Source of the DNA: Lama glama
Lineage: Eukaryota
Length of the DNA: 64,000 bases
Assembly: GCA_028534125.1 (NCBI GenBank)
Contig: CM052816.1
Span: forward strand, 78,990,001 to 79,054,000
Reading direction: 5' to 3'
Below are positions 36,809-62,386 of this stretch, one piece after another. The translations under genes and the position numbers were made by a program. The notes beneath the pieces are model-generated. The model was not told the origin of the DNA. It did no database searches and saw nothing but the letters and a program-made list of their open reading frames with translations. Positions within the stretch are counted from its first letter, which is position 1. Every line of letters starts with the position of its first letter.

Positions 36809-36974
36809 ATTAGAGCGGGAGAGATAATACAGAAGGGATAGTGTGTAGAAAGGAAGTGGAGTAGACTGTGGCAGCCATCAGGAGGGGGTGAGGGTGTGCT
36901 TGTTAAAAGAACTAGTGTTCAAAATGTTAAAAACTAGTTTTATAACAAGTCTGGTTATGTCTTACATCCTTTAG

Positions 36975-37056
36975 GTGATGGCACAATGCTTTTGGCAGCA
37001 AGTAAAGTCTTGGACAGACTAAAACCGGTTATTGGAGTTAACACTGACCCAGAACG
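36975..37056 (+). CDS. NADK2: NADK2 exon 4 (82 nt)
   Basis: ttag|GT GAT GGC ACA...GAA CG|gtaag; (G)DGTMLLAASKVLDRLKPVIGVNTDPER, completing the NAD-kinase GGDGT motif. Confidence 0.97.
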
Positions 37057-39242: not shown

Positions 39243-39602
39243 CTTTTTTTAAATTGTATTTTCCCCCAGTTTTATTGAGGTATAATTGGTATCTAAGCAC
39301 TGTATAAGTTTAAGGTGTACATCAGATGAATGACTTGACTTACACATGTTGTGAAATGATCACCACAATAAATTTAGTTAACATCTGTCATCTCTTATAG
39401 CTACAAAAAAGGAAAAAAAGGTTTTTTTCCTTTATGATGAGAACTCTTAGGATCTACTCTCTTAATAACTTTCAAATATACCATACAGTAGTGTTAACTA
39501 TGCCACTGTGTTGTACATTACAACCCTAGTACTTACTTACCTTCTAACTGGAAGTTTATATCTTTTGACTACCTTCATTCAGTCCCTCCTCCCCTAAACT
39601 GG
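39243..39602 (-). mobile_element. L1 3' UTR fragment (L1MA9-like)
   Basis: Poly-T then ttttattgaggtataattg...tttaaggtgtaca...ttagttaacatc; possible TSD aggctgttc at 39234-39242 and 39603-39611. Confidence 0.8.
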
Positions 39603-39941
39603 AGGCTGTTCTAAGTGCAGTGTAATGTGTGAGCATCCTAATGCCATGGTTGGAGGCTCCCATATGGCAGCTTTAACTCTGGTGAGGAGCTTTGTTGATA
39701 TTTAAGATAGCAAGGTGTGAAAGAGTAAGTGCAACTTCTCCAGGAGGCCCATGTTTTTCTCATGCCTTTGCCTAGAGTGTCCTTACACCACTTACTCATT
39801 GTGTAGCTCTTGTTCATTCAAGACTAGTGCCTCTCCTGGCTCTGACTGTGATTCCCTATCAGAGAGCGCTTATCTCTTCATATATTTTCTGCTTATTTGT
39901 CTCTTCCATTACACTATAAATTCCTTAATTATAGGACTTTT

Positions 39942-40068
39942 TTTTAAAAAAAAAGTTGGGTTTATTATTCATTTATTTCTATTTGGAGGAGGTACTGGTG
40001 ATTGAACCTGGGACCTCGTGCATGTCAAGCATGTGTGCTACCACTTGAGCTATACCCTCCCACCCAAA
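39942..40068 (-). mobile_element. tRNA-Ala-derived SINE (Vic-1-like)
   Basis: Reverse complement gggtatagctcaagtggtagcacacatgcttgacatgcacgaggtcccaggttcaatcaccagtacctcc resembles tRNA-Ala with A/B boxes; 12-bp TSD tataggactttt at 39930-39941 and 40069-40080. Confidence 0.88.
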
Positions 40069-40624
40069 TATAGGACTTTTAATTTCTTTATCACTAGCAC
40101 AGTATTACACAGAGTAGGCAATAAACATTTGAAAAATGAATGATTAATTAAATGATTTTAGGGAGCAGGGCTAGGACCCCAAGCTAGCTGGGTAGATATT
40201 TCCTGGGCATAAGTAATTGAGATCATTGATTCAGTAATTATTTTTTGATTGCCTTTAATGTTGGTGCATGTGTATTTTAGAACTTCGTAATGGCATATTT
40301 TTATACTATTAAAGGAAGAGATTCTTTAGTGATCACATTATATACAGTCTGTTGAAATATATTTTCCTTTAAAAGCTGGCTTAATACTCATTAGCTTGCA
40401 GGGATTTTGAAACTGGTAAGTAGAAGGTGTTGCTTCTCTAATTTCTACCTAGAATAATGTATCCTAGAAGTCTTTTGGTTTCTCTTTTTGCCTCCAGGCA
40501 GAAATGTATTAAGCCTCCTAGCTGTAACACAGGTTGCCTGACTTCTTTTTCATAAGCACTGAATTGTCTCACAATCCTTAAATAAGCCTAGAAGTTAAAT
40601 GTTCAACTTAAGTTTCTTCTTCTC

Positions 40625-40865
40625 TGTATTAGTTATCAAATGCACCATAACAAATTATCCCAAAACTTAGAGGCATTAAACAATAATGATCATTTATTAT
40701 TTCTCCTGGTTTCTGTGTGTCAGGAATCCAGGAAGAGCTTAGCTGCGTGGTTTTGACTTGGGATCTCTCTGAGGTTATAGTCAGGTGTCACCTGGGGCTG
40801 CAGGCATCTGAAGGTTTGACTTGGGCTGGAGGATCTACTTCTAAGATAGATCACTCACATGGACT
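40625..40865. mobile_element. MLT1-type LTR fragment
   Basis: tgtattagttatc...cataacaaattatcccaaaacttag...gtcaggaatccagg...ggggctgcag..atctgaagg...ggctggaggatctacttc. Confidence 0.7.
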
Positions 40866-42373
40866 CCTCTAAATTAAATATATAATTTTAGTTATCTCTT
40901 CTGTATTCTGTACCACTATACTGACCCCTGTAAATAATTATGATGTTTAAATGCTTAATAATCAAAATGGTATAGAAGGCATATGATAGCCAACCTCCTA
41001 GTATTTATACCTATGTGGTTCCCTTCCCACTTCTGTATTCAATCAGGGCTGATCTTTGGGACCAATTAGAATATCATATGACAGTGTGTGGATTCCAAGG
41101 CCAGGTCATAAATGGTATTGCAGCTTCTGTATTGGTCTCTTGGATTGCTCATTCTGTAGCAAGTCAGCCATCATGATGTGAGGGTACCAAAGCAGCCCTC
41201 ACGTGGAGATGCTCATACAAAGGGAATTGAGGCCTCTTGCCAGCAGCTAGCACCAGAGAATAAGCCACATTGAAAGTGAATCCACATTGAAAGTGAATCA
41301 GGCCAAGTCTAGATTCTTCTCTCTAGAGTATTTTAGAATTGCAGTTGACCTCAGGTAGGTCAGGTGACTATCAGATGACTGTTGATAACTTATAATCTTA
41401 CCACTGTGTACAAGTATTGCAATAAATATAAAAATTTTAAAAACCTATTCCCTGACTAAGTTTCTTAACCTCAATGTTGACTCTCTTAGGTAAATTATCG
41501 ATTAGTCACAACTTTGTAAAAACCTTTTTCTCTGCTCTTCACATTTGTAAGTTAATTTATAGTCATTAGTAAGGACTTGTTTTGCCAGGCCTACTTTCAG
41601 CCTTTCCCTCAAGATTGAAGCATCATGTAAATGATGATTGGGCTTTCTGGACCCTTTTCCTCACGTTAGATTCTGTATCATCTCATCTTCTATAGCAACC
41701 TGTAGGCAATCTTAACACTTTATAACTTATGATTTTTAAAAAAATTTCTGTCTTCCACATAAAGCCATTAACTCTTTGAAGGAGTTCATCCTTATATATT
41801 TTTAAATAAATGAAGGATTGCATTGTATTAATCTTTCTGAGTTTCTTACTGACCTGGAATATCTTAAATGACATTTAAAAAGAATTTATGGTTTAAAACA
41901 GTTTCTCATAAATTGATTCCTCAGAATAACCTTTTGAGCTTGATAGTTTTATTGCCCTGTTAGAGATGAGGAAGCTGATTAAGCTAAAGTAACTTACCCA
42001 AAGTTAACAGTTAAATAACTTAAAGGTAAGATGCAAACACCACTATACCAATAGATAATTTTGCAGGGAAATCAATCAGTGGCAAATTTGCTGTCATTTT
42101 TAGATTCACTGTAATGTGGAAACTTAGGTAGTATTGTGTATTATGTCATTAAAGCTGAATGTCAACTGTTTCTACCTGGGTTTTTTTTGTTTGTTTGTTC
42201 TTGTTGAAATTGCAGACAATTTTGTGGCAAAATGAAGTCTAGAGTAGAATTTTTTTTTTTTAGAGTAGAATTTTTAAAATTTTATATCTAATTTTTGTAG
42301 TTTAGTGATACCTTTTGAATTAAGTACTTTTTTTTCTTCTTCCTTTTGCACCATCCAAATCCCTTTTAAAAAG

Positions 42374-42457
42374 ATCTGAAGGTCATTTATGTCTTCCTGT
42401 TCGATATACGCATTCCTTCCCAGAAGCCTTACAGAAGTTCTATCGTGGTGAGTTCAG
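42374..42457 (+). CDS. NADK2: NADK2 exon 5 (84 nt)
   Basis: aaaag|A TCT...TTC AG|gtagg; SEGHLCLPVRYTHSFPEALQKFYRGEFR. Confidence 0.96.
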
Positions 42458-43886
42458 GTAGGAATTTCTTACTGTTATTCTGCAAATATCCTATTAAGGT
42501 AATAAGATAATAATAGTAATCTTATTATTGTTATGTACTTATTAATGTGTGCCATTAAAACTGCTGTTAAACAGAACAAATTAGATAATGTTTGGATTAG
42601 TCTACAGTTTCAACAGTAGCCAGAAAAATATTACATAATTTGAGTTACAAACACATCTAACTTGCCTTCTTCCAGTCCAGTTGGAACTGTATGGAGAAAC
42701 TCTGCCAAATGCTACTTGGCCTGTAATGTAATTGCAAATAGAGGTTTCTCTCCTTCAGTGAGAGAGAGGCCATGTCTCTACTTTCCTAAACTTGTTAAAT
42801 GTTTTTAGCAGTTTGGTAGAAGGATGATTAAAACTGGTGGCTAAAATTGAGTGTTCAGATTCTTTGAGTTTGTATATTTTTTTATCCTCATCTTCTCCCA
42901 TCCGGAATGACTGAGAGTTGGAATTTCTCCAACCATGCTGGGATTCCTGCTGTCTCTCTGTTAAGTGTTTCTTAAGCAGTGGATGTGTTTTTTCATATTT
43001 CTTTCACTTAATTTGTTCAGTGGTCAGACGGTCCTGAAAAGAGGAGGGTAGAGGTGGGAGCTGAGATGAGGTTGGCCAGTTGTATTAGAGAGAGCCAAGT
43101 TTGAGTACTTAGCCTGGCTTTTATAGTTTGAGAAAGCTTTTTCTCCAGGTATTTGTGAAATGGTATTAAATCTTCTTGTCTTCTGGAATTGTTTTGTTAA
43201 TAATGATTCTAGTCATTTCAGAAGTTTGGCATCTCTGCAAATAACCAATTTATAGCTACCAAGTGGGAGTATATTTTTGTATACTTATCTACTAGAATCT
43301 GTCCCGTTGGCTTCTTGATACATCAGTATTTGATTTTGAAATCAGTTAAACCTGATTCTTTTTTTTTCTTTACTTTCACCAAAAATGTCATTTAAGTTTT
43401 GGTGTAATCTTAAGTGTTATAGTGTTTGTTATTCTTTTTTCTCTTACTTTAAAAAAAAAAGCATCATTACAGATTTTAGGAGAGGGAAAAGCATCGTTAT
43501 AAATTTTAAGGGATTTTTATCTAATCTGACCACCTTAGCATAGTATCATTTTAAGTTCAGAATGCTTTTTTTTATATGTTATACTTTTTGATGAGCAAAA
43601 CACAACTGTATTTAGCTCAGCATGTTGGGTTTAATGAATACTCAATAAAGAATTTGACTTTAATTCAAGTCATTTAGGCAGTTTTGTATAGACACATTAG
43701 ATAGTTCCATTATAATTGAGAAGAGAAATAAATGCCTAAATCTGTCTTTGAGCAGTACAAAGGTATTTATGATATAATTTGTTTATTGAATAACTAGTTT
43801 TTTAATAGGAGTGTTTTAATTTGGCTAATTATAATCCTTAGTTAATTTATTCTGTGTTAATTTGCTTTTCCCTTCACTCTTTTAAG

Positions 43887-44023
43887 ATGGTTGTGGAGGC
43901 AGCGAATCAGGTTATACCTTGAAGGGACCGGCATCAACCCTGTTCCTGTCGACCTTCATGAACAGCAGCTAAGTTTGAATCAACATAGTAGAGCCTTCAA
44001 CATTGAGAGAGTTCATGATGCAA
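43887..44023 (+). CDS. NADK2: NADK2 exon 6 (137 nt)
   Basis: ttaag|A TGG...GCA A|gtagg; WLWRQRIRLYLEGTGINPVPVDLHEQQLSLNQHSRAFNIERVHDA. Confidence 0.96.
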
Positions 44024-44699
44024 GTAGGTGGACTGGGAATTAGATGTGTTTGGGGTGATATTTAATTTATAGTTCCTTTAATCTCTAATTTCTAGAAGTG
44101 GTCACTTATAATGAACTTATTTGGGGATTTTGGTGCCACTGACAACACTTAGGAAAGTACAATTGGACTACCTGAGTTGTAAAATTTGTTATAATTAGAT
44201 TCTGAAATAAGAAATATAGCATATTTCTATAAGAAATGTTTTCTGGGGTGAATTTGAAAACTAGTTGATTGGGGAAGGACTACAAAATGTCCAAAAGGAT
44301 AGTTGATATTTCGGGAACGATTCTTGGCCTTAATCTTTGAAATGTCAGAAAGGAAAAAGAAAGTGGTAGAAAGAAAGTGAACTAATTTGTGCAAGATTTC
44401 ATACTACTTACACATTTATATACTTATATTTAAATATATTTACCATAGTTCTAGTTATTAAAACTTTTTTATTAGAAAATTTTGTATCCCAGACTTAAGA
44501 TTTGTATTTCAAATATTTGTGTAAGATGCTAAGAGAATGTTAGCATACAATGATATGATATGCAGCTTTTTTGTTGTGTTAAAGTGAATTCTCAGTTTTG
44601 AGCTAATTTGATTATAATTTAGCGATATTTTCCTACTTTTGCTAGTAACTGTGAGACTTTCATGATGCAAGACGATCCCAAGAGATAATCCTATTTGTT

Positions 44700-44826
44700 T
44701 CTTTTTTTGGAAGAGATGTAATTAGGTTTATTTATTTTTTATTTTTTTAACAGAGGTACTGAGAATTGAACCCAGAACCTCAAGCATGCTAAGCACAGTC
44801 TCTACTACTGAGCTGTATCCTCTCAC
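44700..44826 (-). mobile_element. tRNA-Ala-derived SINE (Vic-1-like)
   Basis: gaggtactgagaattgaacccagaacctcaagcatgctaagcacagtctctactactgagctgtatcc is an antisense tRNA-Ala-like head; tail contains gtaattaggtttattt. Confidence 0.85.
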
Positions 44827-45766
44827 CTAGTGTAATCTATCCTTTAACTAGATTGTATTTGTGTACAAGTTAAGGAAGAATTCATTTTTATTACCTTTAT
44901 ACCTTCAAGGGAAATAGGGTTGATTTATTTATTATTTAAAAAAAATCTTAATCGCATAAACTAGCAACTTTCTTATTTGCAAGGCTCATTGTATTAATTT
45001 GAATAAGTTAATTGATTTCATTAACAATCCCAGAATCTTGGTGGCTTAACATACTGAAGATTTATTTCGAGCTCATCTCATTGTCCAATGGATGTTCAGG
45101 CAACCTCCAAACAAGGCTCCTACCATCTTCTAAGGCCTCGAGTCTTCAGTTGGGCCCTCTGTAGCTTGTGGGGAGAAAATGGCTGTGAGAGCCTGGAGGA
45201 CCCTTAGGGAGGGTTTAGGAGTGGGCTTTTTCACTACTTTTGCTCATATTCCACGGCCATTACTAGTCCCATAGGTAGAACATAGTCTAACAGTTGATAG
45301 TGTGGGAGAATTACACAGTGTTGTGGTCTCTGTCACGAGTATAACAAGTCCGTATTTAAAAATACAAATTATAATTAATTTTGTAATCCATTCTCTTAAA
45401 TAGAAAATTGTTTCTTGGTATTGAGTCTATCTTTTCATGTCCTATGGAAGCAAGTTATAAATGAGCAGATTATAAATGAGCATATAAATTCATGAGTAGA
45501 TAATGTTTGGTATTCAATTAGCATGAAAGAAAATATAAGCAGAATTAATGAGATGAAGCAATTTTACATAATCTCTTCCTCCTTTAATAAAGGATTTTAG
45601 GTGAAATTCAGCAAGCATACATCATAAAAGTGCAATACAGAAATGAAAATTAGGATGAGGAAAAATAGGAATAGAGGTAGAAAGTCAAGACCATATAAAA
45701 GAAAAACATGTGGTTACAGTTTGGTAAGATTTTAGATTTATTGGTTAGTAATATTTAGTGAGTACT

Positions 45767-46012
45767 GACAAAGAATACAAACTATGGTTACCAAAGGGTG
45801 GGGAGGGATAAATTAGGGGTTAGGAATTAACAGACACACATTACTATATATAATAGACGAACAACTAGGACCTGTTGTATAGCACAGTTTCTTGTAATAA
45901 CATAATGGAAAAGTAGCTGAAAAGAATAAATATATATGTATGTATATGTATAACTGACTCACTTTGCTATATACCTGAAACATTGTAAATCAACTACACT
46001 TCAATAAAAAAA
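45767..46012 (+). mobile_element. L1 3' end (artiodactyl type) with TSD
   Basis: tatggttaccaaaggg...ggagggataaattagg...tgtatagcacag...cattgtaaatcaactacacttcaataaaaaaa; TSD tttagtgagtact at 45754-45766 and 46017-46029. Confidence 0.88.
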
Positions 46013-46624
46013 AATTTTTAGTGAGTACTTAATGTTAGTTGAGCATTTGCAGAAAATCTGTGGGGAGATGTAAAACATTCCATTAGTAATTACCCTATGT
46101 AAAGAAAAATAATTTAAACAATAAATTTTAGCTATTTAATTTATGAAACTTGTCAGGTATGAAAATGTGAATATATCTAGTACCAAATTAAGGCAGTTCC
46201 GAAAGTTAGATTTTGCAGTTTTAAGTAAATCAGATTTGATTAAAGACATCAAATTTTTTATATACCTTTTTCTGTTAAGTTCTTTCTACTATATTATTCT
46301 GAGATTTAGCTGATAAGGTTAACCCATTATATAATTTGGTCAAATACGTTTTCAAAAGTTCTTTGGTATCGTAGTAACTTGGTGTAATCAAAAGAATAGT
46401 TGGGCTACTTTAGGCAGTTATAATCCAAAAGAAATGAGATACATGCAATCAATGTTCAATAAACGTATAAACAAAAGAATGTAATAGGTCACAAGTCAGA
46501 GGAGAATATTAGATCAGTGGTTGTGCTGGTGACAATGGTGGAAAGTTTTTTTTAGTGTACTAAGTGTCTAATGTGTATTCGATACCTGTGCACTTTACCC
46601 TGAAACGTAGCATCTTAAAACATG

Positions 46625-47090
46625 ACAAATTACCTCAGAATTTAGTATCTTAAAACATAATTATTATGATTTCACAGAGATTATGAAGGTCAAGAATCCA
46701 GGAGTGGCATAGCATGTTAGTTCAGGTTTAGGGTTTCTCAGGAGGTGACAGGCTGTCTGCAGGGACAGCAGTATCTGAAGACAAGACTGGGACTGGAAGA
46801 TCTGCTTCACAACCCTTCATGTGCATGTATGTTAGCAAGAGGCTTCAGTTCCTCACATGTTGACTTCTCCATTGGACTGCTCATAAAGTACCTTCCCCCA
46901 GGGCAAGTGATCTGAGAGAGTGACCAATGTAGAAGTCTTTTTAACTGAATCTTTGAAGTGACGTATTATTACTTCTGCCCTACGTTGGTCCCATAGACCA
47001 ATCCTGGTATGACGTTAGAGGGAGAGTTAGACAAAAATGTGAATACCAGGAGGCGGGACTCCCTGGGGACCGTATTAAGGCTAGCTGCCA
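46625..47090. mobile_element. MLT1-type LTR remnant
   Basis: acaaattacctcagaatttagt..cttaaaaca...ggtcaagaatccaggag...cttcagttcctcacatg...tgtgaataccaggaggcggga. Confidence 0.7.
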
Positions 47091-47951
47091 GAATTGAAGT
47101 GGACTTTTAAGCTTTGACTTAGGAAAAAATGGGAAGGAGACAGAAAAGGGAATTTGTCCCATAGTGCTTGCCCAACAGGAGATACATGGGCGCAATGAAT
47201 CTGCTATTGGTGACGTTGAGAAGATGGGGCTGGCATTTCCAGTTGGAGACTGGTGAAAGATAAGAGAAACCATTTGAAGGTGGCAATTACAAGTTTGATA
47301 CAGAAAGCAGTGGGAATTCTTTGGAGGATTTTGTGTGACGGAATGATGTTTAAATAATCATGAAGGAAGATTACTTAAGCTGTGCGTACAACCTTATAGA
47401 GTAAAAAAAAGATGACTTCTTTTTGGAGTCATAAAAGGGGATGTGGTTGTTTCTCCACTGCTGCCATTGCTAAAAAACACTCAGATTTTTCTGTTTGAAA
47501 AAAATCTGATTTTTAAAGTAACTCATTTGGTGTCCAACATGAACCATCCATGTAACTTGCTGCTTAAATCCAAAATGGCTCTTCAACTTTGGAGTACTTG
47601 ATCATTTCTACTTCTGAAGCCTCCAGAATAAAACTAAGTCAATTTTGACAACGTGAATTTTATGCTATGGATAAATATATTTCATCACTCTTGAAGAATT
47701 GTTTCAAGGAGAACTAAGGTTTATTTTGGAGAGACAGAGGCTTCGTTGCAGCTATAATGTTTAGGTGATTTTGAGGGTTTAAATTGTGAATACTTTAAAT
47801 GAGAGATATTTAATTTAGATGTTAATAATGTTAAAGTATAGATTCTGTTAAGACAAAAATATGAATACTTTAATATTTTATAAATTTATATGATAATATT
47901 TCTAAAGTTTACATCTTGAATTTTTTTTGTTGTTGTTTTCATTATCTGCAG

Positions 47952-48030
47952 GGTTTGAGGCTTCTGGACCCCAGCTTTTGCCAGTGAGAGCACTAAATGA
48001 AGTCTTCATTGGGGAGAGTCTATCATCCAG
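47952..48030 (+). CDS. NADK2: NADK2 exon 7 (79 nt)
   Basis: tgcag|GG TTT...TCC AG|gtact; (R)FEASGPQLLPVRALNEVFIGESLSSR, containing the NE motif. Confidence 0.97.
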
Positions 48031-51000
48031 GTACTTTTAAACCTGTGATTTTGAGTTTGAAATTTAATATTTTAGTAATTTTTATGCTATTTATTCAACT
48101 TATACAACCTAAGATTTGTGAATAATTAATACTGCATAAATAATAGAAATGAATTATTTAATGAAATATTTCCAAACTTCTGTACATATTATTACATGTT
48201 AAAGAGGAAAGAAGGCCTTATTACCAAAAATGTTGTAAAACCCTAGGATAAACAAAGTTATTCAGACTTCTTTACTGCAGTGTTTCCCAGAGCCTTTAAT
48301 CTATCGTATAGGACCTTTATAAATGTCTATGAGAATGATATGTTTGCAATCGATGTAAAACTTTGATCTTATAAAAAGTCCATATTAAAATTTCCCTACT
48401 AACTCTCTTAATAGTGTTTTAAAGCTGATTTATTTGTTTGCTTGTTTTAATCCAGGATCCAGTTAAGGATCATGCATTTGGCCATCATGGCCCTTAGAGT
48501 GAATTAAGGACAATTCGTTAGCCCCACCCCTGTTTTGTCATTTATGATATTAACATTTTTGAATGGTCTAAACCAATTTCTTATGCAGAATGTTCTTTAT
48601 TTTGAATTTGTATGATTTTTTTTCTCTGCATAAGATTAGGACTAAGCATTTTTGGCAGGACTACTGCATAGGTAATACTGATCCTTCTTAGTGTAATAAA
48701 AGGCAAGTGTATTGATAGTTTAAGATTTGTAACCATTATTACCAAAAATTAAGGTCAGTGAAGTTCTTCACTAGGAATATAGAAATATAATATGTGTTTT
48801 ATTGATAAAATCTGTTTTGTGAGTATTGAATATAAATTAGGCTTAAATTGTCAGTAGAATTTTTTGCAAAACTTTGTGTGACATTAGTTACCAGTTATAA
48901 AATGATTTCCATAATGTAAAGTTAATATGATTCTTGGTAGTACTTTAGAACTTTCATTCTCATTTTTGTAGATGTAGGTAAATTAGGGGTGAGGGTTAGA
49001 GATGAATCTGTACCCTACTTTCCTGCTATCAGAACCACATGACCCTTTGAAGGTCATGGAATGATCCCCTAGTTTACTGAGAGTTCCATATATTCTATTT
49101 ATCATCAGTTATATCATTTTATAGGAAGTTTAATGATGGGTGAGAAAAGTTTGTCTTAAAAAAGCCGTATTTTAGCCAATAACTTAATTCAGGTAGTACT
49201 GAAAAGTACAAAGCCTGATTCAACAGAATGCTTTTTGTGTTGTTGTAATTATTTTGATTCATGTAATTTTAAATTTATCAATAAAATATATTGAGCACCC
49301 TCTATGGGATGTAAAGATGTATAAGATAAAGGTAGTGGTATCTTAGTTTTTTGGAAGATAGTAAATAAAATACATCATTAAAAATTATTAAAACTAAAAT
49401 GTATTCTTCAAAGAAATCAAATAAAAAATATTTTTAAAGGACTTAAAAATATAGTAAAGTGATGACACAACATTGTAAACTGACTGTACTTCAATAAAAA
49501 TATATATACAAAAATATAAAAATATAAAGATGTTTATTTTAATATAGTAAAACTTATGCTATATATAAAGGTTTTGCTTTTGCTGCATATCAATTTTGAA
49601 GCAATATGAAAATGAATAATGGATACATTTATGTCATAAGAGAGAAGGAGGGAAATGTAACTCTAATTAGTGATATAATCTAGTCATTATTGCTAAGGAC
49701 ATTGGACAGAAGAGAGCAACAACTTTAAAATGAGATTGGAGAAAGTCTACATTAAAATACGTAGATGATAAAGATGTTTTGTGAGTTTATACTTAACTCT
49801 GGGGAAGCCATTTAATGGCTTACATTATTCTGTTTGTGTATCTTAAAGGTTGTAACTTCTGAGCTTGCACTAGCATTGCTTTATGATTTGTACTTACTAA
49901 AAAATAACTTACAAAAGGAAGAGAACTGGGATCGGTTGATAGACTTTGGGAATTTAGTGAAATCCCATTAGGAGATTTTTAGATAGAATGCTTTTATTTT
50001 CTGTGGCAGTAGTGATTTGGTTGGTTTACCCCTAATATCTGATGCTGGTTCTTTTTGTGGTCTTTGATGCCTCACCTTATATCTTTACTAAGATAAGGAC
50101 AGCAATGGGTTGGCTTCTGATGCTACTGAAAAAGGTTTAATTAACTACTGGAAATATTAGAACTTATTTTTAAAGTTTTATTGACATAGACCCTTAGTAA
50201 AAGGAAATGAGCATTTGCTGGATGCCTGCTACGTCAGGCACTGTGCATATGTGTATGTTATCGTATGTAGCCTCATAGCAACTCTGTAAGAAAGGTAGTT
50301 AGTTATATTTATCAGTGAAAAAATTGAGATTTGGATTAATTTTCCCAAGGTCATGTAATTAGTTAATTAGCATCAGAACTATCATATAAACCCAGCATTT
50401 CTGATTTCAGATCCTGTATTGAGTTACTATGAATAAAACTTGTGAAGTATTGCCTGTTTTTTAAACTGCTGCTTCCTTGTGCAGGCTTTCCTACTGGCAA
50501 TGCTATCTTGAGGCCATCTTGTATTATTTCTTACATAGTATCTTGCTTATTGCTTAAAGCAATAAACAGCACCCTCAGTAGATGGTAATTATTATTTACT
50601 TTAAAATTTCTAACCTACCTAATAGAATAGAAGCTTCAAGAAGACTGTCTATTACGTTTGCCATTAAGTCCCCAGTACCTAGCACAGTGTTTATTAAAAC
50701 ATATTAGGCACTTAATAAATATTTATGGAATGAATAAATGCTGATGGGTCCTGCCAGACGTTCTCATTATCTCCATTTTATAGGGAAGTCTGTGGCTCAG
50801 AGAGCCGAAGTAATTTGCCCCAAGTCACACAGTTAATAAATAACAAAGCCAGGGTAAGCCTGTGCTTTTCTTCAGTGTGTCATACAACAGAATTCTAGTC
50901 TTCCTGAAAACTTAAGTGCTTTGCTTGGAAAATATGAACTGCAGCAATATTGTTCCTGCCTCATTTATAATGTTCTTAAACTTAAGAACATTTTAAAAGC

Positions 51001-51039
51001 CCAATTTTTTTTTCTTTTCTTCTATTTGTTCTAACCTAG

Positions 51040-51105
51040 AATGTCTTATTCTTGGGCTGTAGCAGTGGACAGTTTAAGAAGAAGTATACCCACTCTAAAG
51101 GGACT
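51040..51105 (+). CDS. NADK2: NADK2 alternative cassette exon (66 nt, +22 aa)
   Basis: Long pyrimidine tract and ctaacctag acceptor, CT|gtgagt donor, phase 2-2, no stop: (R)MSYSWAVAVDSLRRSIPTLKG(L). Confidence 0.82.
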
Positions 51106-52424
51106 GTGAGTTTTATTGCTGCCTTAAAAAAATAATTTCCCTGAAACCAAAATTCTATGAGTTGACTATGACTAATCTTGATAAACTTGCATGTGAGAAT
51201 GACACTAAATTTGCTCATTGTTTTGGGTTCATCTCTCACCTGACTGGACCTTTCCTTTTCTCCACCTCTGCTTCTCTTCTATCCCCACTTACCCCTAATC
51301 TCTTGTTTCCGTGTGATTCTGTCATAATAGCAGCCATCCCTATGGATTTGGCTGGCTTGTCTGTGTATAATAGGCTCCTAATGTACCTAAAATTTCTTAT
51401 TTTCCAGGAGGAAATAACAAGGCTATGAAATAGGCTAAATGTGAATATCAGGCTTGTTATCTTTTATTTTTATGAAGAACGCTGACTTCAGAGAGAAAAT
51501 GACAGAGTTGTATCATATAAAACCTTCACAGATTAAGAGCTTGGCAGAAGTTGAAAGGGTTAGAATAAGAGCTAAATTATCCATTGAGTGCTAGTATTTG
51601 CAAGCATATCTAATAATTGTCATTGTTTTGAAAAGATGTATTTCGTTAAGGGATTATTTTAATTTTTTAATTTGCTGTAGAAAAGTAACCCAGTGTTGAT
51701 TAGTGACACAGTTATTTTAAGATATAGCTCACAAAATAGGCTTTTACGTGTGTCAAAATTTCTTTGAATAGTTGCAAATCGTTTATGCATTCATTCAGTT
51801 AAAGAATAGTGTCATTTTTGCTGGTGTCAGAAAACTCATTTGATTCCATATTTATGAAATACTCTAATAGTTTTGTCCACTGATCCAGGACTGGTTGAGA
51901 ATTTTCTTTAGAACTTTATCATCTCTCCTAGCTTACTATCAATTCAAAGGCACATTGGTATATAACATAAGAAACAAGAGTTTAGCAGGAACTATTGGTG
52001 ACTTAAAGGATTAGATACAGATTTAGATATATCAAGGGCTGGCTACCAAGAATGAAACTCACCTAGAAATGATATTTTCTCTTTGAATTTTGAGATAAGG
52101 CTCTGTATGTTTCCATAAAAGCAGTAGCAGCAAAAATTTATAAGAAGCTCCTGTTTGAAATGTTGAAGTATTGATAGAAAGGAGCATATAGGTCAGAGAG
52201 GGAGGCAGACATGCAAACTTTAAAAAAGGTTTTTTTTTGTTTGTTTGTTTTCTTTTACTTACTCAATATTGGAATCACCATCACAATGTGTGTGCGTGTT
52301 AAATCAGGTATGTCTAAGTTAAGCTGCCTACTTAGATTTCATCAGCTCTGAAAAAGACTGTGTTTGTCTTATTTACCATGAGACAGAAGTTCAGCAGATC
52401 CAGTTTTATATTCTCAATTTATAG

Positions 52425-52520
52425 GGCTTCCTACTACGAAATTTCAGTTGATGATGGTCCATGGGAAAAACAGAAGAGTTCGGGGCTTAATTTGTGTACT
52501 GGAACGGGATCAAAGGCCTG
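52425..52520 (+). CDS. NADK2: NADK2 exon 8 (96 nt)
   Basis: atag|G GCT...GCC TG|gtgag; ASYYEISVDDGPWEKQKSSGLNLCTGTGSKAW, the Gly-rich NAD-kinase motif. Confidence 0.97.
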
Positions 52521-55500
52521 GTGAGTAACTTGGGATGTTCCTTATCAACTTTTGTGAAATACTTTAAGTAATGTAATTTACTTGATGTCTCATATCAGTG
52601 TATCTAAGGCCTCTAATACCCAAGAGGTAGCCTGGTGTTGTTATGTTGGTTGGCTCATCAGTTGGGTCCAGGAGTCCAGCTTTGACTTCTTAGATTATAG
52701 CTGCAGCCTGGATTTGGTCATTATTTAGCTTTCTGCACTGGATTTGTAATGGGAAAAAAGAAAATGAGAATGTGTTTAGGGACTATGTGTTTTTTAAAAA
52801 TGAATATTTTATATAATAGTAAAGAAATGAAAACAAAGTACAATACCAAAAATATGCTGGAGTTTTGTGTATTCGAGCCCTAACTGGCAATAACCAGGGA
52901 CATCCTGTAACTTGTTTATCCTGTGACCTTTCTCTGGAAAGTCTCTTCTGCTTCTCAGTACACACATGCACGTGCCTCCCAAACTTTTATCTGTAGCTGT
53001 CTTCTCTCTTGAGTACAAACTCATATTCTAAAATTACCTACTACATAGGATGTTAATAGCAATTCAGATTCAACACATTCAAAACTGAATTTATTGTCAT
53101 CAGTGTTTCTTCCTGCGTTCCCTGTCTTAATGGTGTCACTGTTAACCTTGACTTTGTATTCTAGAGAAAACACATTACTTTCTAAAATCTTGCTCTTATC
53201 TTTGAGTCTCCCTGTTCTCCCCTCTACACACACCAGTTTCTAAATCCTATCAGTTGTACTTCTGAAGTCCTAGCCCCCTAGTTTCTGCTATTTCTTTGGA
53301 ATAGTACCCCATCTTTTGAGTGAGTATTTGTGCTTCACCCTTTATTTATTCTTCAGGCTGTCATTCAGTCTATCACAGAGCAATATTTCCGAAATGTAGA
53401 TATGTCTCACTATTTCCCTTGTGTGCTTTAAAGCTTTCATTGACTCCTGACTATGTTCAGATTACTCAGGTTGTTACATAAGGCCCTTCAAATGTGACCT
53501 AAGCTTCCTTGCCAGCCTATTCCTGCCCGACCTCTAACCTATCTGCACGCTAGCAACACGGCCAGCTGCTTACAATTCTCAGCACAAGCCATATTCTGTC
53601 TGAGCTTTTTGTTTTTGCTCAATGCAACTTCTTCCTGCATTGAATACCTGAACGTTCTCTACTTTCCATCCACTGGCTGAAAAATCCAGTCTTCAAATGT
53701 CATTTTCTATAGGAAATCTTTACTAGGACCTAGTTCCTTTATAAGCCTACTTAATTACTCCCTTTTTATGTCCTTCCCCAGCACTCTTTCCTCATAGCAC
53801 TGTTACAGCACTTAGCACATTAGTACTTTCTGATAAGCTCATACCCAGTTAGTTTGAGCAAGTTGAGGCACAGGGATGGTGACTAGTGATTTTTTTCCTG
53901 CTTAACTTTTTGTGTGCATAGCACAGTACTTAATACATACTCACTCAAATACTTTTGAATGAATGACGCCATGTACACAAACACAGCTAAAGCAGTGCTT
54001 ATCAGACCTTCAGTTTGATTGTTTAAAATGGAGTTTTATTTCCTCTGCCACACACTGTGTAGTTGAATCCTGTGTTGATGTTGCATTTAAATATGGCTTA
54101 GATTAGAAGTTCAGTCTTCTCTTTGTTGCTTGTTAGAGGCTCCCATGTCTGCTGTGCTGTAGTGTAGAACCAGCTCACTGTGTCTGTCTCTCTGTGTCCT
54201 GCCTCTGCCCCCTTGGTTACGCAGTCCCTTTCCCTCTCTGCTCAGCCCTGTGCAGCGTGCTTGCTTCTGACATGTTCTACTCTCCTCCCTCTCACTACTG
54301 ATAATTCTTTGATTATGATTTCATTTCTCATTTATCTTTTGATCCTTTTTCTCTTCAGAAAGTAGAGAGGAAAGAGAAGCCTAGGGTCCAGGGTGCTGAG
54401 GGAAAGCTGTATGTTCTGTATATTAATGATTTCAATTTATAGCACTACCATTTTTGAGCACTTCTTTGTCACTAGTAAGTCTCAAAAATACTCTGAAATT
54501 AGGTGATTTTACTTTTATTAACAATATAAAAAGTCTCAGAAGTTAATTGACTTGCCCAAAGACAAGTGGCTAATTAATGGTGAAGGTAGGATTTAAATTC
54601 TGAACAAACTGTAGACTCCTGAGCCACAGAAGGAGGAAAAGCATGGAGGGTCCCTTGTGGGAGGCTTATGAGACTTGATTAGAAGTGTTGCCCATGATAT
54701 CCACTCTCATGCCTTTAGCTAGAACTTTGTTATGTGTTATATGGCAAGAAGGGATGGAAAATACAGCCCAATTATGTGCCAGGTGGGGAAAATGAGTTCG
54801 GGGATTAGCTGTCTCATCTTTGCATTTCCAAAAATTCTTCCACAAGACATAGGATGTAGGGGCTGTGTTGCATAGCAGGTGTCTGAATTTTTGCATTGTC
54901 ACCTCTGTGCCCTTCCCAGTGTGAACTGTCGCTTGCAGCGTACACCAGGGGAAGCACTGTGGAGGGGGATCGTTTACGTTTCCAGCCAGTCCTGAGGCTG
55001 TTCCCAGTCCTCCTCCATACACTCCGTCCTGGCAGACGTAATTAAGGGTGAGGAGGTGTTCTTAAGTAAGAGTTTTACTAGCTGGTGAGGATATGAGACT
55101 CTCTTTGTCTTTCAAGTTGTTAGTCTTTAATAGAATTTATGTCTAATTTCAAACTGGAACTCAGAATGGTGAAGTTTGTAGATCTAAGCAGAAAAAATTG
55201 TTGTGTGCTAGCTGACATCTGCTCTGGCATATGGTTTGTCTTTGATGTAGAATGTAAACCGTTAGAGTGAATTGGCTGAGATTCAGATTACAGCCACAGG
55301 AATTAGTTTTAATTTAACCCCAATTTAGAGGACTTAGTTTCTGCTGATTTGCGGTATCCCTAATAAGTTCTAGGAATATTAGAGTAAGTCTTATGAATTG
55401 CTCTAATATTGACTAACTGTAGTAAGGAGATATTATCACTAATATCTTTTGCCCTGTATATATTTTAATTCAGTGGAACCCTAATAAACAGTTTGTTTTT

Positions 55501-57113
55501 GTGACTTTTCATTTAAAATAGAATTCCAAAACAGTATCTTTCAGTAGTGCATATATTCAGAGAAAATAGAATATGACTCATACATATTCCTTGCATTTGA
55601 CATTTTCATTCAGTGTTGAGCTCTTGCCTTGAGCCAGGTAGTGCCCTAAGTGTCTTACATCTTGTGTGACAGTAATGCTAATGAGATCGGTATTGGGAAC
55701 CTCGTGCTAAGCAGTAAGAAAGTCAGCACACTCAGAGTATTTTGCCTTATACCACATACTAAGTATGAGCAAAAGTACGGAGGCTGAATGAGCTTGCGGT
55801 GTTTGGAATGTGAAACTGGAGGGTGGATAAAGGTGGAAAAATAGGATAGGCAAGGGCCAGATTTTAGATCTGTCTCCAGTATACAGACGTGATCTGTGAA
55901 TGACCTGAATTTTTTAATGTGAAATTTTGTGTGTCTGCATTTTTCTTAAGAGAACGTCCAAATGTTTTTGGAGGGTATAGGATTAGACGGGTATACACAG
56001 TATCTCTTACTCCTCCTCCTCAAAAGTATTAAAAGCCACTGAATGAGGTTTAGAGTGATGTGACGATGCAGTGTTGTTCCTGGTGTTGGAATTATCTACT
56101 AAGGCCATGTGAGAAGAGTTATGAGACAGAAGAATTCTAAATTCCTAGAAGATTTTGTTTTTAAGCCTTTCCTTAACCATGTTTTTGGACCCCAGCACAG
56201 AGCTACTTTTAAACATTCATGTTTATGTTAACATTTTTTCTTGTGGTTAAGCAAGGCATCATACTGGTAAAAGATTTTTCATTTCAAGAACTACTTTATA
56301 ATTTAAAGAAATACACGTTTTAAAAATATGTTAAGTAGTACAAAAGGGTATACAATGAAAAGCTAGTCTCTCATTTTAATTTCTAGTACTTATCTTGAGA
56401 CACAACCACTCAATATGTGTATAATGTTTTAATATCAATAAAATAAGGAAGTTTTATTTATGTATATCATATAGTGCCTTTGGTTTTTTAACATATGGGT
56501 ATCTTTCTGTATCATTACGTATAGTTGTATTTTAGTCTTTTTAATATCTACATAATACTCTGAGTAGCTATAATATAATTTATTTAACCAGCTTACTATG
56601 GTTTTGCTATTATTTTTGCTTCCTGGTTGTTTTGCTATTATAAATAATGCTTCAGTGAATATCCTTTCTTGTCTTTGCATATTGTATGTGCAAGTGTATT
56701 TTAGAATAAACTACTAGATTGAAGAATATGCTCATTTTAAATGTTGGTATTGCAGAATTGCCCTCCAATTGTGGTTTCTGTAATTCCATAAGTGTATGAG
56801 AATACTTCTTTTCCCATACGCTGTCAATGCATTACTTACCAGTTTTTACTTCTTAAAATCTGAGAAAAATCTTGTTTTAATTTGTATTTCTTCAACTATG
56901 AGTAAGAGTGAACATTTTTTAATGTAGGCCCATGAGGTGTTTGCCCACATACTTTGCCCACTTTTTAAAACTGTGTGACATGGTTATTGTCTTTTGGTTG
57001 CTTTTTCCTCGATAATTTATAAGAATTCTTTGTACATTATGTGGATTATTCCTTTTTCATTTTAGTATGTTTTTAGAATTAAAATTTAAAGTGTATGTGG
57101 TGTTTGTTTCTAG

Positions 57114-57169
57114 GTCATTCAATATTAACAGGGTTGCAACTCAGGCTGTGGAAGATGTTCTAAATATTG
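57114..57169 (+). CDS. NADK2: NADK2 exon 9 (56 nt)
   Basis: ctag|G TCA...ATT G|gtgag; SFNINRVATQAVEDVLNI. Confidence 0.96.
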
Positions 57170-57308
57170 GTGAGTGACAAGATAGCTACTATATTTTATA
57201 ATTATAATATCCTATGTCATATATGTATTTTATTGTATGTTAGCTATATTATATGTTACAGAATATTTTATTTAATCAAGATGTTTTCCCCCTTTCCTTT
57301 TTCAATAG

Positions 57309-57362
57309 CAAAACGACAAGGAAATTTAGATCTTCCATTGAACAGAGAATTGGTAGAGAAAG
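57309..57362 (+). CDS. NADK2: NADK2 exon 10 (54 nt)
   Basis: atag|CA AAA CGA...AAA G|gtcag; (A)KRQGNLDLPLNRELVEK. Confidence 0.96.
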
Positions 57363-59731
57363 GTCAGTGACAAATGATCATAATTACTCACAATTTAAGT
57401 TAAATTTTGTGTAGATTTGGAGGATAGTATTGTGAAGTGTTCTTGTCTATTAGCAAACAGTGCTTTTTTGACTCAAACATGCTCTTAATATAATATCCTT
57501 TTAAATATATTTAAACAATAAAAAGTTTAGAGCTGGAGTCTTATATATGATTTTTGTTAACCATGGAAATACAACCTCTATGTTATATTTCATTGTGACT
57601 GCAAACATATCCTAAGGGATGTGAAAATATAGAAAAATACACATCTGGAAAATAGGAAATGTATACCTAAACTCCATTGCTGTTAACATCCTCTGAATGG
57701 GAAGGAACTCTGAGCTGTGAATGCTGATCTTCATATTCACTACTGTGTTCGCTTTAACCTTCTACTTACTCCGCCCAGTTATTTCGGGGCTCCTTTAAGA
57801 GAACTAGCACTGCTGGGGAAAGGATGCTGACCAGAGAGTTTGAAGACTTAGGTTCCAATCCCAGAACAAACTGGCCTCTCACTGTGAAATGATGGGCAAG
57901 ACTGACTCCATTCCTCCATTTCCTCAACTGTGGAATCAGAGAGTGGAAGGAGCTTGCTGGTGTATAGGAATTCTTGAAATTTATTATTTAAATTTAATTT
58001 AAAAAAATATTTAAATTCTTAAACTGAAAAACATAGTCATTTGATTTGCATCTGAAATTTTAACACACTAAAGTCTACTCATCTACCAGGATCATTTTTG
58101 AAAGTATGGACCTCAAAGCTAAATCTTGTTGTCTCTGTTTAATTGAAGAATATCCTAAGATTTTAAGGTAAATTATTTTTATTGAAGAATATCCTAAGAT
58201 TTTAAAAAATCAACATAAAATCCAAACTTGTTAATGATTGCCTCTACCTACCTTTATAAGAATTTTTCAACATACACAATCAAAACAAAATTAAGACATA
58301 AGGTAGATATTGGCACATTTAAGACTGCAACTGTCATCCATAAATATTTGCATTTGAGAGAGTTATCAGAACAGGCATGTTCTTATTGGTTGCCTTTAGA
58401 GTGATTTAGCAGTACATGATAAAGTATTTTAACAATGTCAGTTAATCTATTTATATATTTTGAATTCCCATATAAGACTTTCTTTGTTGGCGAGATGGTT
58501 TGCCTTTAAAATTGTAAACAGAGCTAAATCTCTGAGGTCCCTTTCAGCCCTCTAAAACAGACTATTTTCTTCTTCTTTCAATTTAAGACCTAAAAGATTA
58601 TTTCAGTCACTTCTTGTAAGCTAAGATTAGTGTTAAATCTGTATCAAAGAAAGGAAAATTAGGCATTTATAATAATTGATTCTTCATTATATGATTTAAC
58701 TTAAAATATAATGTATATAAACAAGTGAAATTTATATCAGGTATATAAACTAATTTAAAATCACTATATATAAAATACAGTGATTGACTTTTCCGTTAGT
58801 AAACATACCACTTTACTTTATGTGAAGGAATGTTAGTCTTCTGAAGATTTGACTGTCTTCAGAAGCAGTTGTGAATGCCAATGGGGCAGTTGCTGTTACA
58901 GACACTTCTAGAGCTACTTCCTTCAGAGCTAGCATATTGTGTGTGTGAGTGTGTGTGTGTGTTCCCAGAGAGGCAAATTTTCATTTTTGAGAATGAGTTA
59001 GATATTTTTATTTAAGAGCCAAATAATTCAAATGAAATTTGGGTATATAACGTAGATTATGTGACAATCTAGTAATGACTTTTAATGTGGTGGTCAATTA
59101 AACACTCTTTCAAGCCCAATTTCTTTGTGCAAGTTGTCTTTAACCACTTTGTACCCTGATGCCAACTCTTGTGTGCCTCTTGGTTAGAGAGAGAGCAGGT
59201 CCCTTTCTAAGATTTCTAAAAATATCTTGAGTAATGGCAGTTTCGTTAGAGAAAGCATACTGCCTGTCATTGTTTGAGACTGCATTTTATACCAAGACTA
59301 TTAATTTATAATTATATTTAGGAACCCTTTGGGATGATATTTTGGAAAGGAACTTATTAGCAAGGGAATATGGTAACTCAAGTTCCATTTTTGAGTGCCT
59401 CAAGCTAGTTTCTTTATTTTCATTTGATTACTATCTTTGTAGTTCCCCCCCTACACACAATGTAGCTATTTCTTCTATATTGTGGTTGATGTAGGCTTCT
59501 GTGGGCTAATCTTGAAACCTACTCCTTACTTATAAGGGTTTTGTTTTGTTTTTTAGTTTTTTAAATGGAATGTATTGTGAGTTCCAAGAAACTTCCTGCC
59601 AAACAGACCTTTGGAATAGAGCTGCGTTTAAGTTGGCGATAGCATCCACTTTCGTTTACCCTTCTCAGAATTGTAAAACACTCAGAAGTCTTTCACTAAA
59701 GGTGCTAATATTCTGCTTTTCTCTTTTATAG

Positions 59732-59855
59732 TAACAAATGAATATAATGAATCACTGCTTTACAGTCCAGAAGAACCAAAAATACTTTTCAGTATTCGAG
59801 AACCAATAGCAAACAGAGTTTTCTCAAGCAGTCGTCAGCGCTGTTTCACCTCAAA
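59732..59855 (+). CDS. NADK2: NADK2 exon 11 (124 nt)
   Basis: tatag|TA ACA...TCA AA|gtaag; (V)TNEYNESLLYSPEEPKILFSIREPIANRVFSSSRQRCFTSK. Confidence 0.97.
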
Positions 59856-60689
59856 GTAAGCTTCCAAAAACCGACTTGTGATTGTTTTCATCTCTTGTAA
59901 TTATAAAGCATACTTGGTTTTAAAGTAATTTCATTAAATTCACTCATTCAAAGGAAAAGGAAAAGTAGGACCTGTGGAGCTAATGAGGTATCATGCTAAC
60001 CTGGCTAAAGTGATATTTTCTTTAAAACTTATTGTGCCATTTTAGAGAAACTAAAATTTAAATGAATAGAAAGGATCTAGTTATTTAATTGGGTGATATG
60101 GGCTTTTTTATTTTTTAAAAATATATTAAGACACAACAAGATCAAATTATCATTATAAAGGAAACTGGAAAGCAACTTTTTTTAATATGCTGTGGAACAG
60201 AAGCATATAAGCCTAACTTGTATAGCAATAACCCTTTAGAGTGGAAGTCATTTCTTTCAGCTTTTCCCTAACATGAGCCCCCCTTCCCACATCTATTGAA
60301 TTTGCCTCAGATTTTCTTTTTTGAGAAGAGGATATACAAAAATGTTTATAATTTCTTATTTTGTAAGAGTTGCCCAGTTTTCCAAACTAACAGGAAAACC
60401 TGTAATTATGAAAAAATGTCATCTATCTCATAGCAAGCAAAGAGCAGTTTAATTACAAATTGCTGCTTATAGTGTCCATCTGTGTGTTTTGAAAATACAT
60501 AATTGATTTTTTCCAAGAGAGACACTAAAAAGGAAACTCATCATACTTAAAAATCGCTTTAGCATTTGAGAGTTAATTTTGGTTAATCAACAAATCTATA
60601 CTCAGTTTGGGTGAGACTGTCTATAAAGATTCATTTAAATGTTTGCTCATATAAATGGGAGAATAGCTTTATGACCTTGGCAGTTGGAA

Positions 60690-61890
60690 AGTATCTCTTA
60701 GCAGCAAGATTGATAAATTGAACTACATTAGAATTAAGTACTTTTGTTAAAGCAAGACACCATTAAGAAAATAAAAAGGCAAGCCAGAGTGAGATACTTG
60801 TAGTACTTGTATCCAGCAATGATTCATACCCAGAATATATTATAAAAATTCGTCCAAGAAATTTTTCAATAAGAAAAAGACAGGCAACCTAGTAGAAAAA
60901 TGGTCAAAAGTCTTGGACAGGCATTTTACAGAAGAGGGTATCAAAATGGCTGATAAGTATATGGAAAAAACATCCTTGAGGGGAGGATATAGCTCGGTGC
61001 TTACATTGCAGGAGGGCATGGGCCTCAGTACCTCACATTAAGTAAACAAACAAACCTAATTACCTCCACCCCCAAAAACAAACAAACAAAAATACAAAAT
61101 TAAAAAAAAAGACCCTCATATAAGGAATAAAGGAAGGCTACAGATTAGGAAAACACCCCCAAAATATTCTTGATCTTACTATTCATCTGGGAAATGCACA
61201 TTAAAACTACATAATATGGTATCAGACACACCCCCCGGAATAGCTAAAATACCAGTTGATGATAAGTGGAGCAACTAGAACTTTATAGACTACTGTTAGG
61301 AATAGTTTGGAAAATTGTTTGGCAGTTACCTACCAAAGCTGAATGTGGCATATTGACCCAGTAACTCCAAGATGTACATCCAACAGGAATGGATACACTG
61401 ACAGAAAGGTGTGCACCAAGAGACATGCTCAAGCATATTCACAGTAGCAACATTCCTAATAGGTAGAAACCCAAATGCCCATGAATAGTAGAAGAGATGA
61501 CTTAAATCCTGGTGTTCTCAAATGGTGCAAGTATTTTCATACAGCAATGAAAGTAAACACAGTACTGCTACATGTAATAACATGGGTGATTTCATAAATA
61601 TCTTAAGCAAAAGAAGCTAGACACAGGCATACCTATTGTATTCTTCTATTTATATAAAGTTGAAGAATACACAAAGCTATTACTGCTGTGGTGATTGAAG
61701 TTAGGATAGTGGATATGCTTGGGAAAGTGGGGCCGGGGTAGTGACTGGGGATTGGAGTAAGAGCATTAAGAGAGCTTCTGGGGAACTAGGTAACATTTGA
61801 TTCCTAATTTGGGGGGTGATTATGTGTGTATGTTTGATTATCGGGTTGTACCCTCATAATTTGTACCTTTTCTGTATGTTAAATATAAGT
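60690..61890 (+). mobile_element. Old L1 (ORF2 end/3' UTR) interrupted by a SINE
   Basis: caagacaccattaagaaaataaaaaggcaagcc...acaggcaacctagtagaaaaatgg...gagcaactagaact...aaacccaaatgccca. Confidence 0.8.
60978..61110 (+). mobile_element. Degenerate Vic-1-like SINE nested in L1
   Basis: ggggaggatatagctc...cagtacctc...aaacaaacctaattacctcc...A-rich tail; shares the acctaattac motif with the copy at 44.7 kb. Confidence 0.75.
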
Positions 61891-62247
61891 AAAATTTTCA
61901 CAAAAAGATAGGTTACATTCTTGCTCAATACCTAAAATAATTGTAATGGTAATAACATTCAAAAAAAGCATATGAGTTCCATCAGATCTGAACTTGTTCC
62001 CTGATAAATGTTTGGGTGAATGGAGCTATCCTGAACATTTAAATTTTGAAATTGTTTTGATAATGTATCCATGTAATCACATAGTCACTAATTGTCTCAT
62101 ACCAAAGAGCAACTTTGATTTTTTAATATCAAGGCCAAATGATCTATCTGCTAGTTTAGATAAAAATTAAGTGTTTTAAAGAAACTATAATTTAGGGGTA
62201 AGAAAACTGTTGATATTTAATGTTGAAAGATGTTTCTTTCTGCTCAG

Positions 62248-62386
62248 GGTTTGTGTCCGTTCTCGTTGTTGGGATGCCTGCATGGTTGTGGATGGAGGAA
62301 CTTCTTTTGAGTTTAATGATGGAGCAATTGCTTCAATGTTGATCAATAAAGAAGATGAGCTTCGAACTGTGCTTCTAGAACAGTGA
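62248..62386 (+). CDS. NADK2: NADK2 exon 12 coding part (139 nt including TGA)
   Basis: ctcag|G GTT...CAG TGA; VCVRSRCWDACMVVDGGTSFEFNDGAIASMLINKEDELRTVLLEQ*. The 12 exons sum to 1329 nt = 442 aa plus stop. Confidence 0.97.

What the first reader, a model, noticed from the sequence alone, without database searches (positions are those of the whole stretch)
51040..51105. Hidden 66-nt in-frame cassette exon inserting 22 aa into the NADK2 catalytic domain
Seen in sequence: a strong acceptor (long pyrimidine tract, ctaacctag) and a consensus donor (CT|GTGAGT). The length is divisible by 3, the phase (2-2) matches exons 7 and 8, and there is no stop. Inclusion gives ...ESLSSR-MSYSWAVAVDSLRRSIPTLKGL-ASYYE... 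(464 instead of 442 aa). The insert follows R287, between the NE motif (N276-E277) and the Gly-rich motif, which are substrate-binding elements of NAD kinases. The exon is absent from the ORF track. I recall a similar peptide in mouse Nadk2, so the exon is probably conserved and not new. Inference: splicing may switch mitochondrial NADP(H) synthesis by changing activity, substrate access or oligomer state.
Basis: partly seen in the sequence, partly recalled or inferred. Interest (0 to 1): 0.7.

Follow-up and report, generated by a model that had tools for sequence, protein, structure and literature searches.

The report
Known regulated NADK2 loop-extension exon
This is a real but already annotated optional exon of the mitochondrial NADP-making enzyme NADK2, included more as the human heart develops, and its 22 extra amino acids likely retune the enzyme by lengthening a loop predicted to border the substrate pocket, an effect untested in the papers searched.

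Summary
The 66-nt in-frame exon at 51040-51105 is real: the 13-exon gene translates to 464 aa with it and 442 aa without. It is not hidden. It is mouse Nadk2 exon 8, qPCR-validated in print (primers match both junctions), human RefSeq model XP_005248298.1, and a listed human heart splicing event (+0.44 PSI, embryonic to fetal). The peptide was found only in placentals and marsupials. A different 16-aa cassette occupies the same junction in fish, amphibians, reptiles, birds, echidna and marsupials; it has no trace in this intron, which suggests exon turnover. The fold model keeps the kinase core and places the insert in a loop that maps, by offset, to a mobile ligand-pocket loop of cytosolic NADK. 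[quoted passage not shown] Solved structures and the enzymology I read use the skipped form. No junction reads were obtained for this species. The scan's notes held nothing on this exon.

The parts
51040..51105 (+). 66-nt cassette exon of NADK2 (8th of 13; mouse 'exon 8'); adds 22 aa after R287
   Evidence: published junction primers match
50995..51039 (+). Acceptor region: 19-nt pyrimidine run, CTAAC and the AG
51106..51111 (+). Donor GTGAGT
51171..51176 (+). ACTAAT, QKI-type motif 65 nt downstream of the exon (motif identity recalled; function untested)
51188..51193 (+). TGCATG, RBFOX-type motif 82 nt downstream of the exon (function untested; two RBFOX datasets list no NADK2 event)
47952..48030 (+). 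Upstream constitutive exon 7 with the NE motif (N276-E277), ends in phase 2
52425..52520 (+). Downstream 96-nt exon with K304, S306 and the Gly-rich motif up to W319
22384..62386 (+). NADK2 coding span, start codon to stop codon

Best explanation
This is a conserved, annotated cassette exon of NADK2 whose inclusion rises during human heart development and which adds 22 residues to a loop predicted to border the dinucleotide pocket, likely giving a still active enzyme with retuned kinetics in mature oxidative tissues. Shown: the exon, its frame, both isoforms in mouse RNA, regulated inclusion in human heart, and peptide conservation across therian mammals. Predicted: the core fold is kept and the insert extends the loop between strands 277-282 and 311-317. 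Inferred: this loop (282-289) is the counterpart of the mobile 290-297 loop of cytosolic NADK, so a longer, basic, conserved loop would change NAD(H) access, affinity or NAD/NADH preference. Inferred and weak: inclusion is driven by QKI- or RBFOX-type proteins binding just downstream.
For: Mouse junction primers match cassette-to-next-exon (23 of 24 bases) and exon 7-to-next-exon (21 of 22) junctions of this gene, and both isoforms were measured by qPCR. Human 66-nt event chr5:36208625-36208690: dPSI 0.4447 towards fetal over embryonic hearts and 0.347 towards postnatal hearts over iPSC-cardiomyocytes (table identity inferred from labels and row number). 96 of 231 proteins held carry a 22-aa insert, mean identity to human 0.93, with 6 of 22 positions invariant over 21 distinct variants (the set was enriched by my queries). 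AlphaFold2 with 124 sequences: mean pLDDT 82.8, insert 288-306 under 50, core rmsd 1.3-1.6 A to PDB 7r4j-m. NE-to-Gly-rich spacing is 43 aa in 47 of 54 distant relatives where the pattern matched (54 of 141 examined), so the segment is length-constrained. Offsets from the NE asparagine agree between NADK (D314 +30, Y327 +43) and NADK2 (S306, W319), placing R287/A288 inside the counterpart of loop 290-297, which moves 5.7 A at the ligand pocket. [quoted passage not shown]
Against: No activity data for the included form in any paper I read. The insert has pLDDT under 50, so its shape and contacts are not predicted. The loop assignment rests on sequence offset, not on inspected coordinates. The exon is less conserved than its neighbours (0.93 against 0.99; 0.64-0.77 to three marsupials). 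No NADK2 row in 10 supplementary files of an Rbfox1/LASR study nor in the splicing tables of an Rbfox2 knockout in muscle stem cells, which weakens RBFOX as driver. The event was not found in the prenatal-versus-postnatal heart table. The mouse qPCR gives abundance of included transcripts, not their share. No peptide-level evidence seen and no junction reads for this species.
Confidence: 0.5

Rival explanations
1. The insert is a docking surface. It leaves catalysis unchanged and binds a partner protein or the inner membrane through a basic, partly amphipathic helix, localising NADP(H) supply in mature tissues.
For: Invariant V, V, R, R, L, G and a hydrophobic i/i+3/i+4 pattern; net charge +1 to +2; helical moment 0.36-0.48. 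Low pLDDT fits a segment that folds on binding.
Against: The helical moment beats shuffles at p below 0.05 in only 2 of 21 variants. No partner is known. The site lies in a length-constrained catalytic segment.
Confidence: 0.2
2. Inclusion is a brake: the longer loop blocks the pocket, giving a low-activity or dominant-negative subunit that lowers mitochondrial NADP(H) synthesis in non-dividing cells.
For: The insert splits a segment whose length is nearly fixed in distant relatives. NAD sites lie at the dimer interface, so one altered subunit could affect its partner.
Against: Included transcripts are very abundant in mouse liver (about 1/8 of beta-actin) and rise on fasting, where NADK2 is needed. 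The mouse reference protein is the 452-aa included form. The core model is undisturbed.
Confidence: 0.15
3. The insert is tolerated and nearly neutral for the enzyme; regulated inclusion is a by-product of tissue splicing factors.
For: Surface loop, low confidence in the model; it drifts faster than the flanking exons, notably in murid rodents and opossums; two unrelated peptides have occupied the site.
Against: 42 of 96 insert-bearing proteins share one exact 22-mer across primates, carnivores, ungulates, whales, bats, shrew and rodents. The 16-aa counterpart differs at few positions from frogs to marsupials. Such conservation is hard to explain without selection on the peptide.
Confidence: 0.15

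Closest known systems
Mouse Nadk2 exon 8 (NM_001085410 includes, NM_001040395 skips; PMC5233452 Fig. S4; 452-aa reference in bioRxiv 2021.12.10.472125)
   Same: Same exon: published junction primers match this gene's cassette and skip junctions; both forms seen by RNA-seq and qPCR in blood stem cells.
   Different: Murid peptides differ at several positions from the window's. The passages read report the event only and no function.
Human NADK2 isoform X1, XP_005248298.1 (464 aa); event chr5:36208625-36208690 in PMC12925949 supplements
   Same: Same position, length and 21 of 22 residues; flanking intron lengths by my arithmetic 3153 and 1359 nt against 3009 and 1319 nt here.
   Different: One residue (S for N at insert position 11). 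In human it is a predicted (XP_) model; the studied form is the 442-aa protein.
Human NADK2 structures PDB 7n29 and 7r4j-m
   Same: Same fold; model aligns at Z 42-44, rmsd 1.3-2.6 A over 326-350 residues.
   Different: Both distinct solved sequences lack the insert.
16-aa cassette at the same junction in fish, amphibians, reptiles, birds, echidna and marsupials (database gene models)
   Same: Same insertion point; basic peptide; skipped forms also exist in marsupial, platypus and other models.
   Different: Unrelated sequence (shuffle p 0.28 and 0.58); absent from this intron (best score 11.4, random mean 11.8, true members 61); marsupial models hold both in tandem.

Membership tests
Conserved alternative cassette exon | Canonical splice sites, frame-preserving length and phase, no stop | tested here: met
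Conserved alternative cassette exon | Both included and skipped transcripts exist | tested here: met
   Orthologues only: mouse qPCR and junction primers, human PSI tables
Conserved alternative cassette exon | Junction reads in this species | not tested
   No reads were laid
Conserved alternative cassette exon | Peptide conserved in frame across species | tested here: met
NADK2 (mitochondrial NAD kinase, PF01513) | GGDG, NE and Gly-rich motifs and the dimer extension intact in the included form | tested here: met
NADK2 (mitochondrial NAD kinase, PF01513) | Kinase activity and dimer state of the included form | not testable with these tools
   Needs purified protein; no data in the papers read
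QKI/RBFOX-activated exon | Motifs in the proximal downstream intron | tested here: met
   ACTAAT 51171 and TGCATG 51188; 1 of 12 exons has both within 250 nt
QKI/RBFOX-activated exon | Inclusion falls when the factor is removed | tested here: inconclusive
   No NADK2 event in two RBFOX datasets from cells not shown to include the exon; two QKI supplements unreadable
Exon born by tandem duplication of the next exon | Similarity to the neighbour above chance | tested here: not met
   Protein shuffle p 0.07-0.63 over 21 variants; DNA p 0.72

The most novel reading that the evidence does not exclude
Vertebrate NADK2 has a splice-controlled lid on its dinucleotide pocket that was built twice: an old 16-aa cassette was replaced in placentals by an unrelated 22-aa cassette, with marsupials still holding both. 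The included enzyme is the main form in mature heart, liver and brown fat and has different NAD+/NADH kinetics from the 442-aa form on which the structures and enzymology rest, so mitochondrial NADP(H) synthesis is switched by splicing as tissues become oxidative.
Probability: 0.3. Interest if true: 0.65.

Novelty: already known. Interest (0 to 1): 0.33.

Why it matters
NADK2 supplies mitochondrial NADP(H), and its loss causes a severe neurometabolic disease. The structures and enzyme assays I read use the 442-aa skipped form, while the included form is abundant in mouse oxidative tissues and rises in the developing human heart. If the insert changes kinetics, the known regulation (acetylation, phosphorylation, dimer element) misses a splicing layer, and mouse and human studies may have compared different isoforms. 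The exon itself is no discovery; the open and cheap question is what it does.

Tried and rejected
Origin by duplication of the next exon: a visible resemblance was not above shuffles; rejected. Remnant of the 16-aa cassette in this intron: none above random intron windows, ungapped scan only. Amphipathic helix: suggestive, mostly not significant. Conserved phosphosite after the RR pair: that serine is G, D, N or T in other mammals; rejected. Single-sequence fold of an included isoform failed (pLDDT 31) and was replaced by an alignment-based model. RNA runs of a close relative were found but no reads were laid, so inclusion in this species is open. RBFOX tables: no NADK2 event (one Nadk2 row in a down-regulated gene list is gene-level only). 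QKI supplements were too large to read; a myogenesis paper held only one small file, without NADK2. Mary et al. 2022 (PMC10353453) is not held, so its NAD contact list was not seen. Nine answered paper searches on NADK2/C5orf33 with splicing, exon, isoform, inclusion, structure, regulator, heart or proteomics terms, or on regulator knockouts and one more listed no study of this isoform's function or of the 16-aa/22-aa turnover; subscription journals and most supplements are outside that library. Earlier scan notes concerned bacterial NADK2-like operons or were empty.

Full report
Observation. The stretch 51040-51105 is 66 nt, preceded by a pyrimidine-rich acceptor and followed by GTGAGT. Homologous proteins map a complete NADK2 gene at 22384-62386. 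With exact boundaries all internal sites are AG/GT and the gene gives 464 aa with the exon and 442 aa without, N276-E277 and R287 as stated (one search had off-by-one boundaries and was redone). In 37,365 intron bases it is the only candidate passing a simple exon filter at 11 or 12 of 16 pyrimidines; at 13 nothing passes.

It is already known. Database models of 464 aa or near carry the insert in many mammals, among them human XP_005248298.1. PMC5233452 (main-text passages, supplement 1 passages and primer table seen) describes a 13-exon mouse Nadk2 with skipping of exon 8, checked by qPCR. Its 'canonical' primer matches the cassette-to-next-exon junction of this gene at 23 of 24 bases and its 'variant' primer the skip junction at 21 of 22; all other pairings among five junctions scored 11-15. 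The read counts in that figure came out without layout and could not be assigned. bioRxiv 2021.12.10.472125 (passages) gives the mouse protein as 452 aa and notes Ensembl transcripts lacking exon 5 or exon 8.

Regulation. In PMC12925949 (passages and two supplementary rows) a 66-nt NADK2 exon, chr5:36208625-36208690, is more included in fetal than embryonic hearts (dPSI 0.4447) and in postnatal hearts than in iPSC-cardiomyocytes (0.347); I inferred the tables (S5, S3) from labels and row number, and no row appeared in the other four files, including the prenatal-versus-postnatal table. In PMC3625872 (passages, sections 5 and 8) the mouse reverse qPCR primer lies inside the cassette (21 of 22 bases at 51050). 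[quoted passage not shown] Downstream of the exon lie ACTAAT (51171) and TGCATG (51188), recalled as QKI and RBFOX motifs; the gene body holds 15 and 10 such motifs in 39,564 nt, 3 of 1,573 overlapping 100-nt windows hold both, and 1 of 12 exons has both within 250 nt. Against RBFOX: no NADK2 row in 10 files of PMC11874969 (supplement search only) or in the splicing tables of PMC12925963 (6 files held). QKI supplements of PMC10202634 and PMC9122611 could not be read and may bear on this.

Conservation and history. Of 231 proteins then held, 96 had a 22-aa insert, 67 none, 7 a 16-aa insert, 5 a 25-aa, 2 a 38-aa, 2 other lengths, and 52 lacked one flank; the set was enriched by my queries. 42 of the 96 share the human 22-mer, the window differs at one position, and mean identity to human is 0.93 against 0.99 for both flanks. 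A search on the insert gave 37 hits: 30 strong, 29 of them named placentals or marsupials and one unnamed, and 7 weak ones from birds, a fish and one mouse model, without this peptide. A search with a marsupial protein that carries two inserts gave 55 hits; all 22 new ones (frogs, caecilian, lizards, snakes, alligator, ratites, echidna) carry an unrelated 16-aa peptide at the same junction and none the 22-aa one. Two marsupial-type models hold both in tandem. No placental protein held shows the 16-aa form and this intron has no ungapped remnant. The simplest reading is gain of the 66-nt exon in the therian ancestor and loss of the older 48-nt exon in placentals; it rests on gene models and on word-limited searches, not on genome alignments. 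Duplication of the next exon as origin was tested and rejected.

Structure. Both distinct solved NADK2 sequences lack the insert. AlphaFold2 on the human included form with 124 sequences gave mean pLDDT 82.8, with only the targeting peptide and residues 288-306 under 50; the insert sits between strands 277-282 and 311-317, and the core matches 7r4j-m at rmsd 1.3-1.6 A. Among 141 distant relatives, 54 matched a pattern spanning the NE and Gly-rich motifs; the span was 43 aa in 47, 44-46 in 5, and 59 in 2 with the 16-aa cassette. PMC11759006 (passages) gives N284/E285, D314 from the other monomer, Y327 and a loop 290-297 that shifts up to 5.7 A at the ligand pocket of cytosolic NADK. The same offsets give N276, S306, W319 and loop 282-289 in NADK2; W319 stacks on nicotinamide according to PMC9245612 (parts 1-2 of 4 read). 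K304, at +28, corresponds to the adjacent-subunit residue that sets NAD/NADH preference in a bacterial enzyme (PMC8553519, passages) and is an inhibitory acetylation site (PMC9873681, passages and section 6). So the insert most likely lengthens a mobile loop at the pocket edge. Whether it faces its own or the partner's site was not determined here.

Mechanism. Shown: a regulated, conserved exon giving two isoforms. Predicted: intact fold with a longer loop. Inferred: the included enzyme is active, since it is abundant where NADK2 is needed, and differs in substrate access or affinity (0.5). Rivals: docking surface (0.2), brake (0.15), near-neutral (0.15). The recombinant enzymes in PMC3535332 and PMC3625872 (passages) and PMC9245612 derive from the 442-aa form. 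Ten paper searches listed no functional study of the isoform; Mary et al. 2022 was not held.

Verdict. The exon is real and already known, so novelty is low. What remains of interest is that its function appears untested, that it is developmentally regulated, and that the same loop seems to have hosted two different cassettes in vertebrate history. Interest 0.33.

Noticed in passing
window 22121-22387: An upstream ATG opens an 88-codon frame whose stop overlaps the NADK2 start codon (ATGA). The homologous ATG is modelled as an in-frame extension of 94-99 aa in horse, fur seal, bats, pika and pocket mouse proteins, but is out of frame here; likely a promoter-region artefact or an overlapping upstream ORF.
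   Followed up: partly
window 52425-52520: The next 96-nt exon is also phase 2-2 and is skipped in many 410-aa models, including human isoform 2; that removes K304, S306 and the Gly-rich motif and would probably kill activity. One horse model keeps the cassette but drops this exon.
   Followed up: partly
window 48031-52424 (orthologous intron in other vertebrates): A second, unrelated 16-aa cassette occupies the same junction in fish, amphibians, reptiles, birds, echidna and marsupials and was not found in placental models or in this intron.
   Followed up: yes
window 51050-51071: The reverse primer used for the published mouse tissue and fasting profile of the gene (PMC3625872) lies inside the cassette, so that profile reports included transcripts only.
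   Followed up: yes
window 42374-42457: Exon 5 (84 nt, phase 2-2) is another frame-preserving exon; mouse papers report transcripts lacking exon 5.
   Followed up: no
window about 7200-7700: An assembly gap of 500 N upstream of the gene.
   Followed up: no
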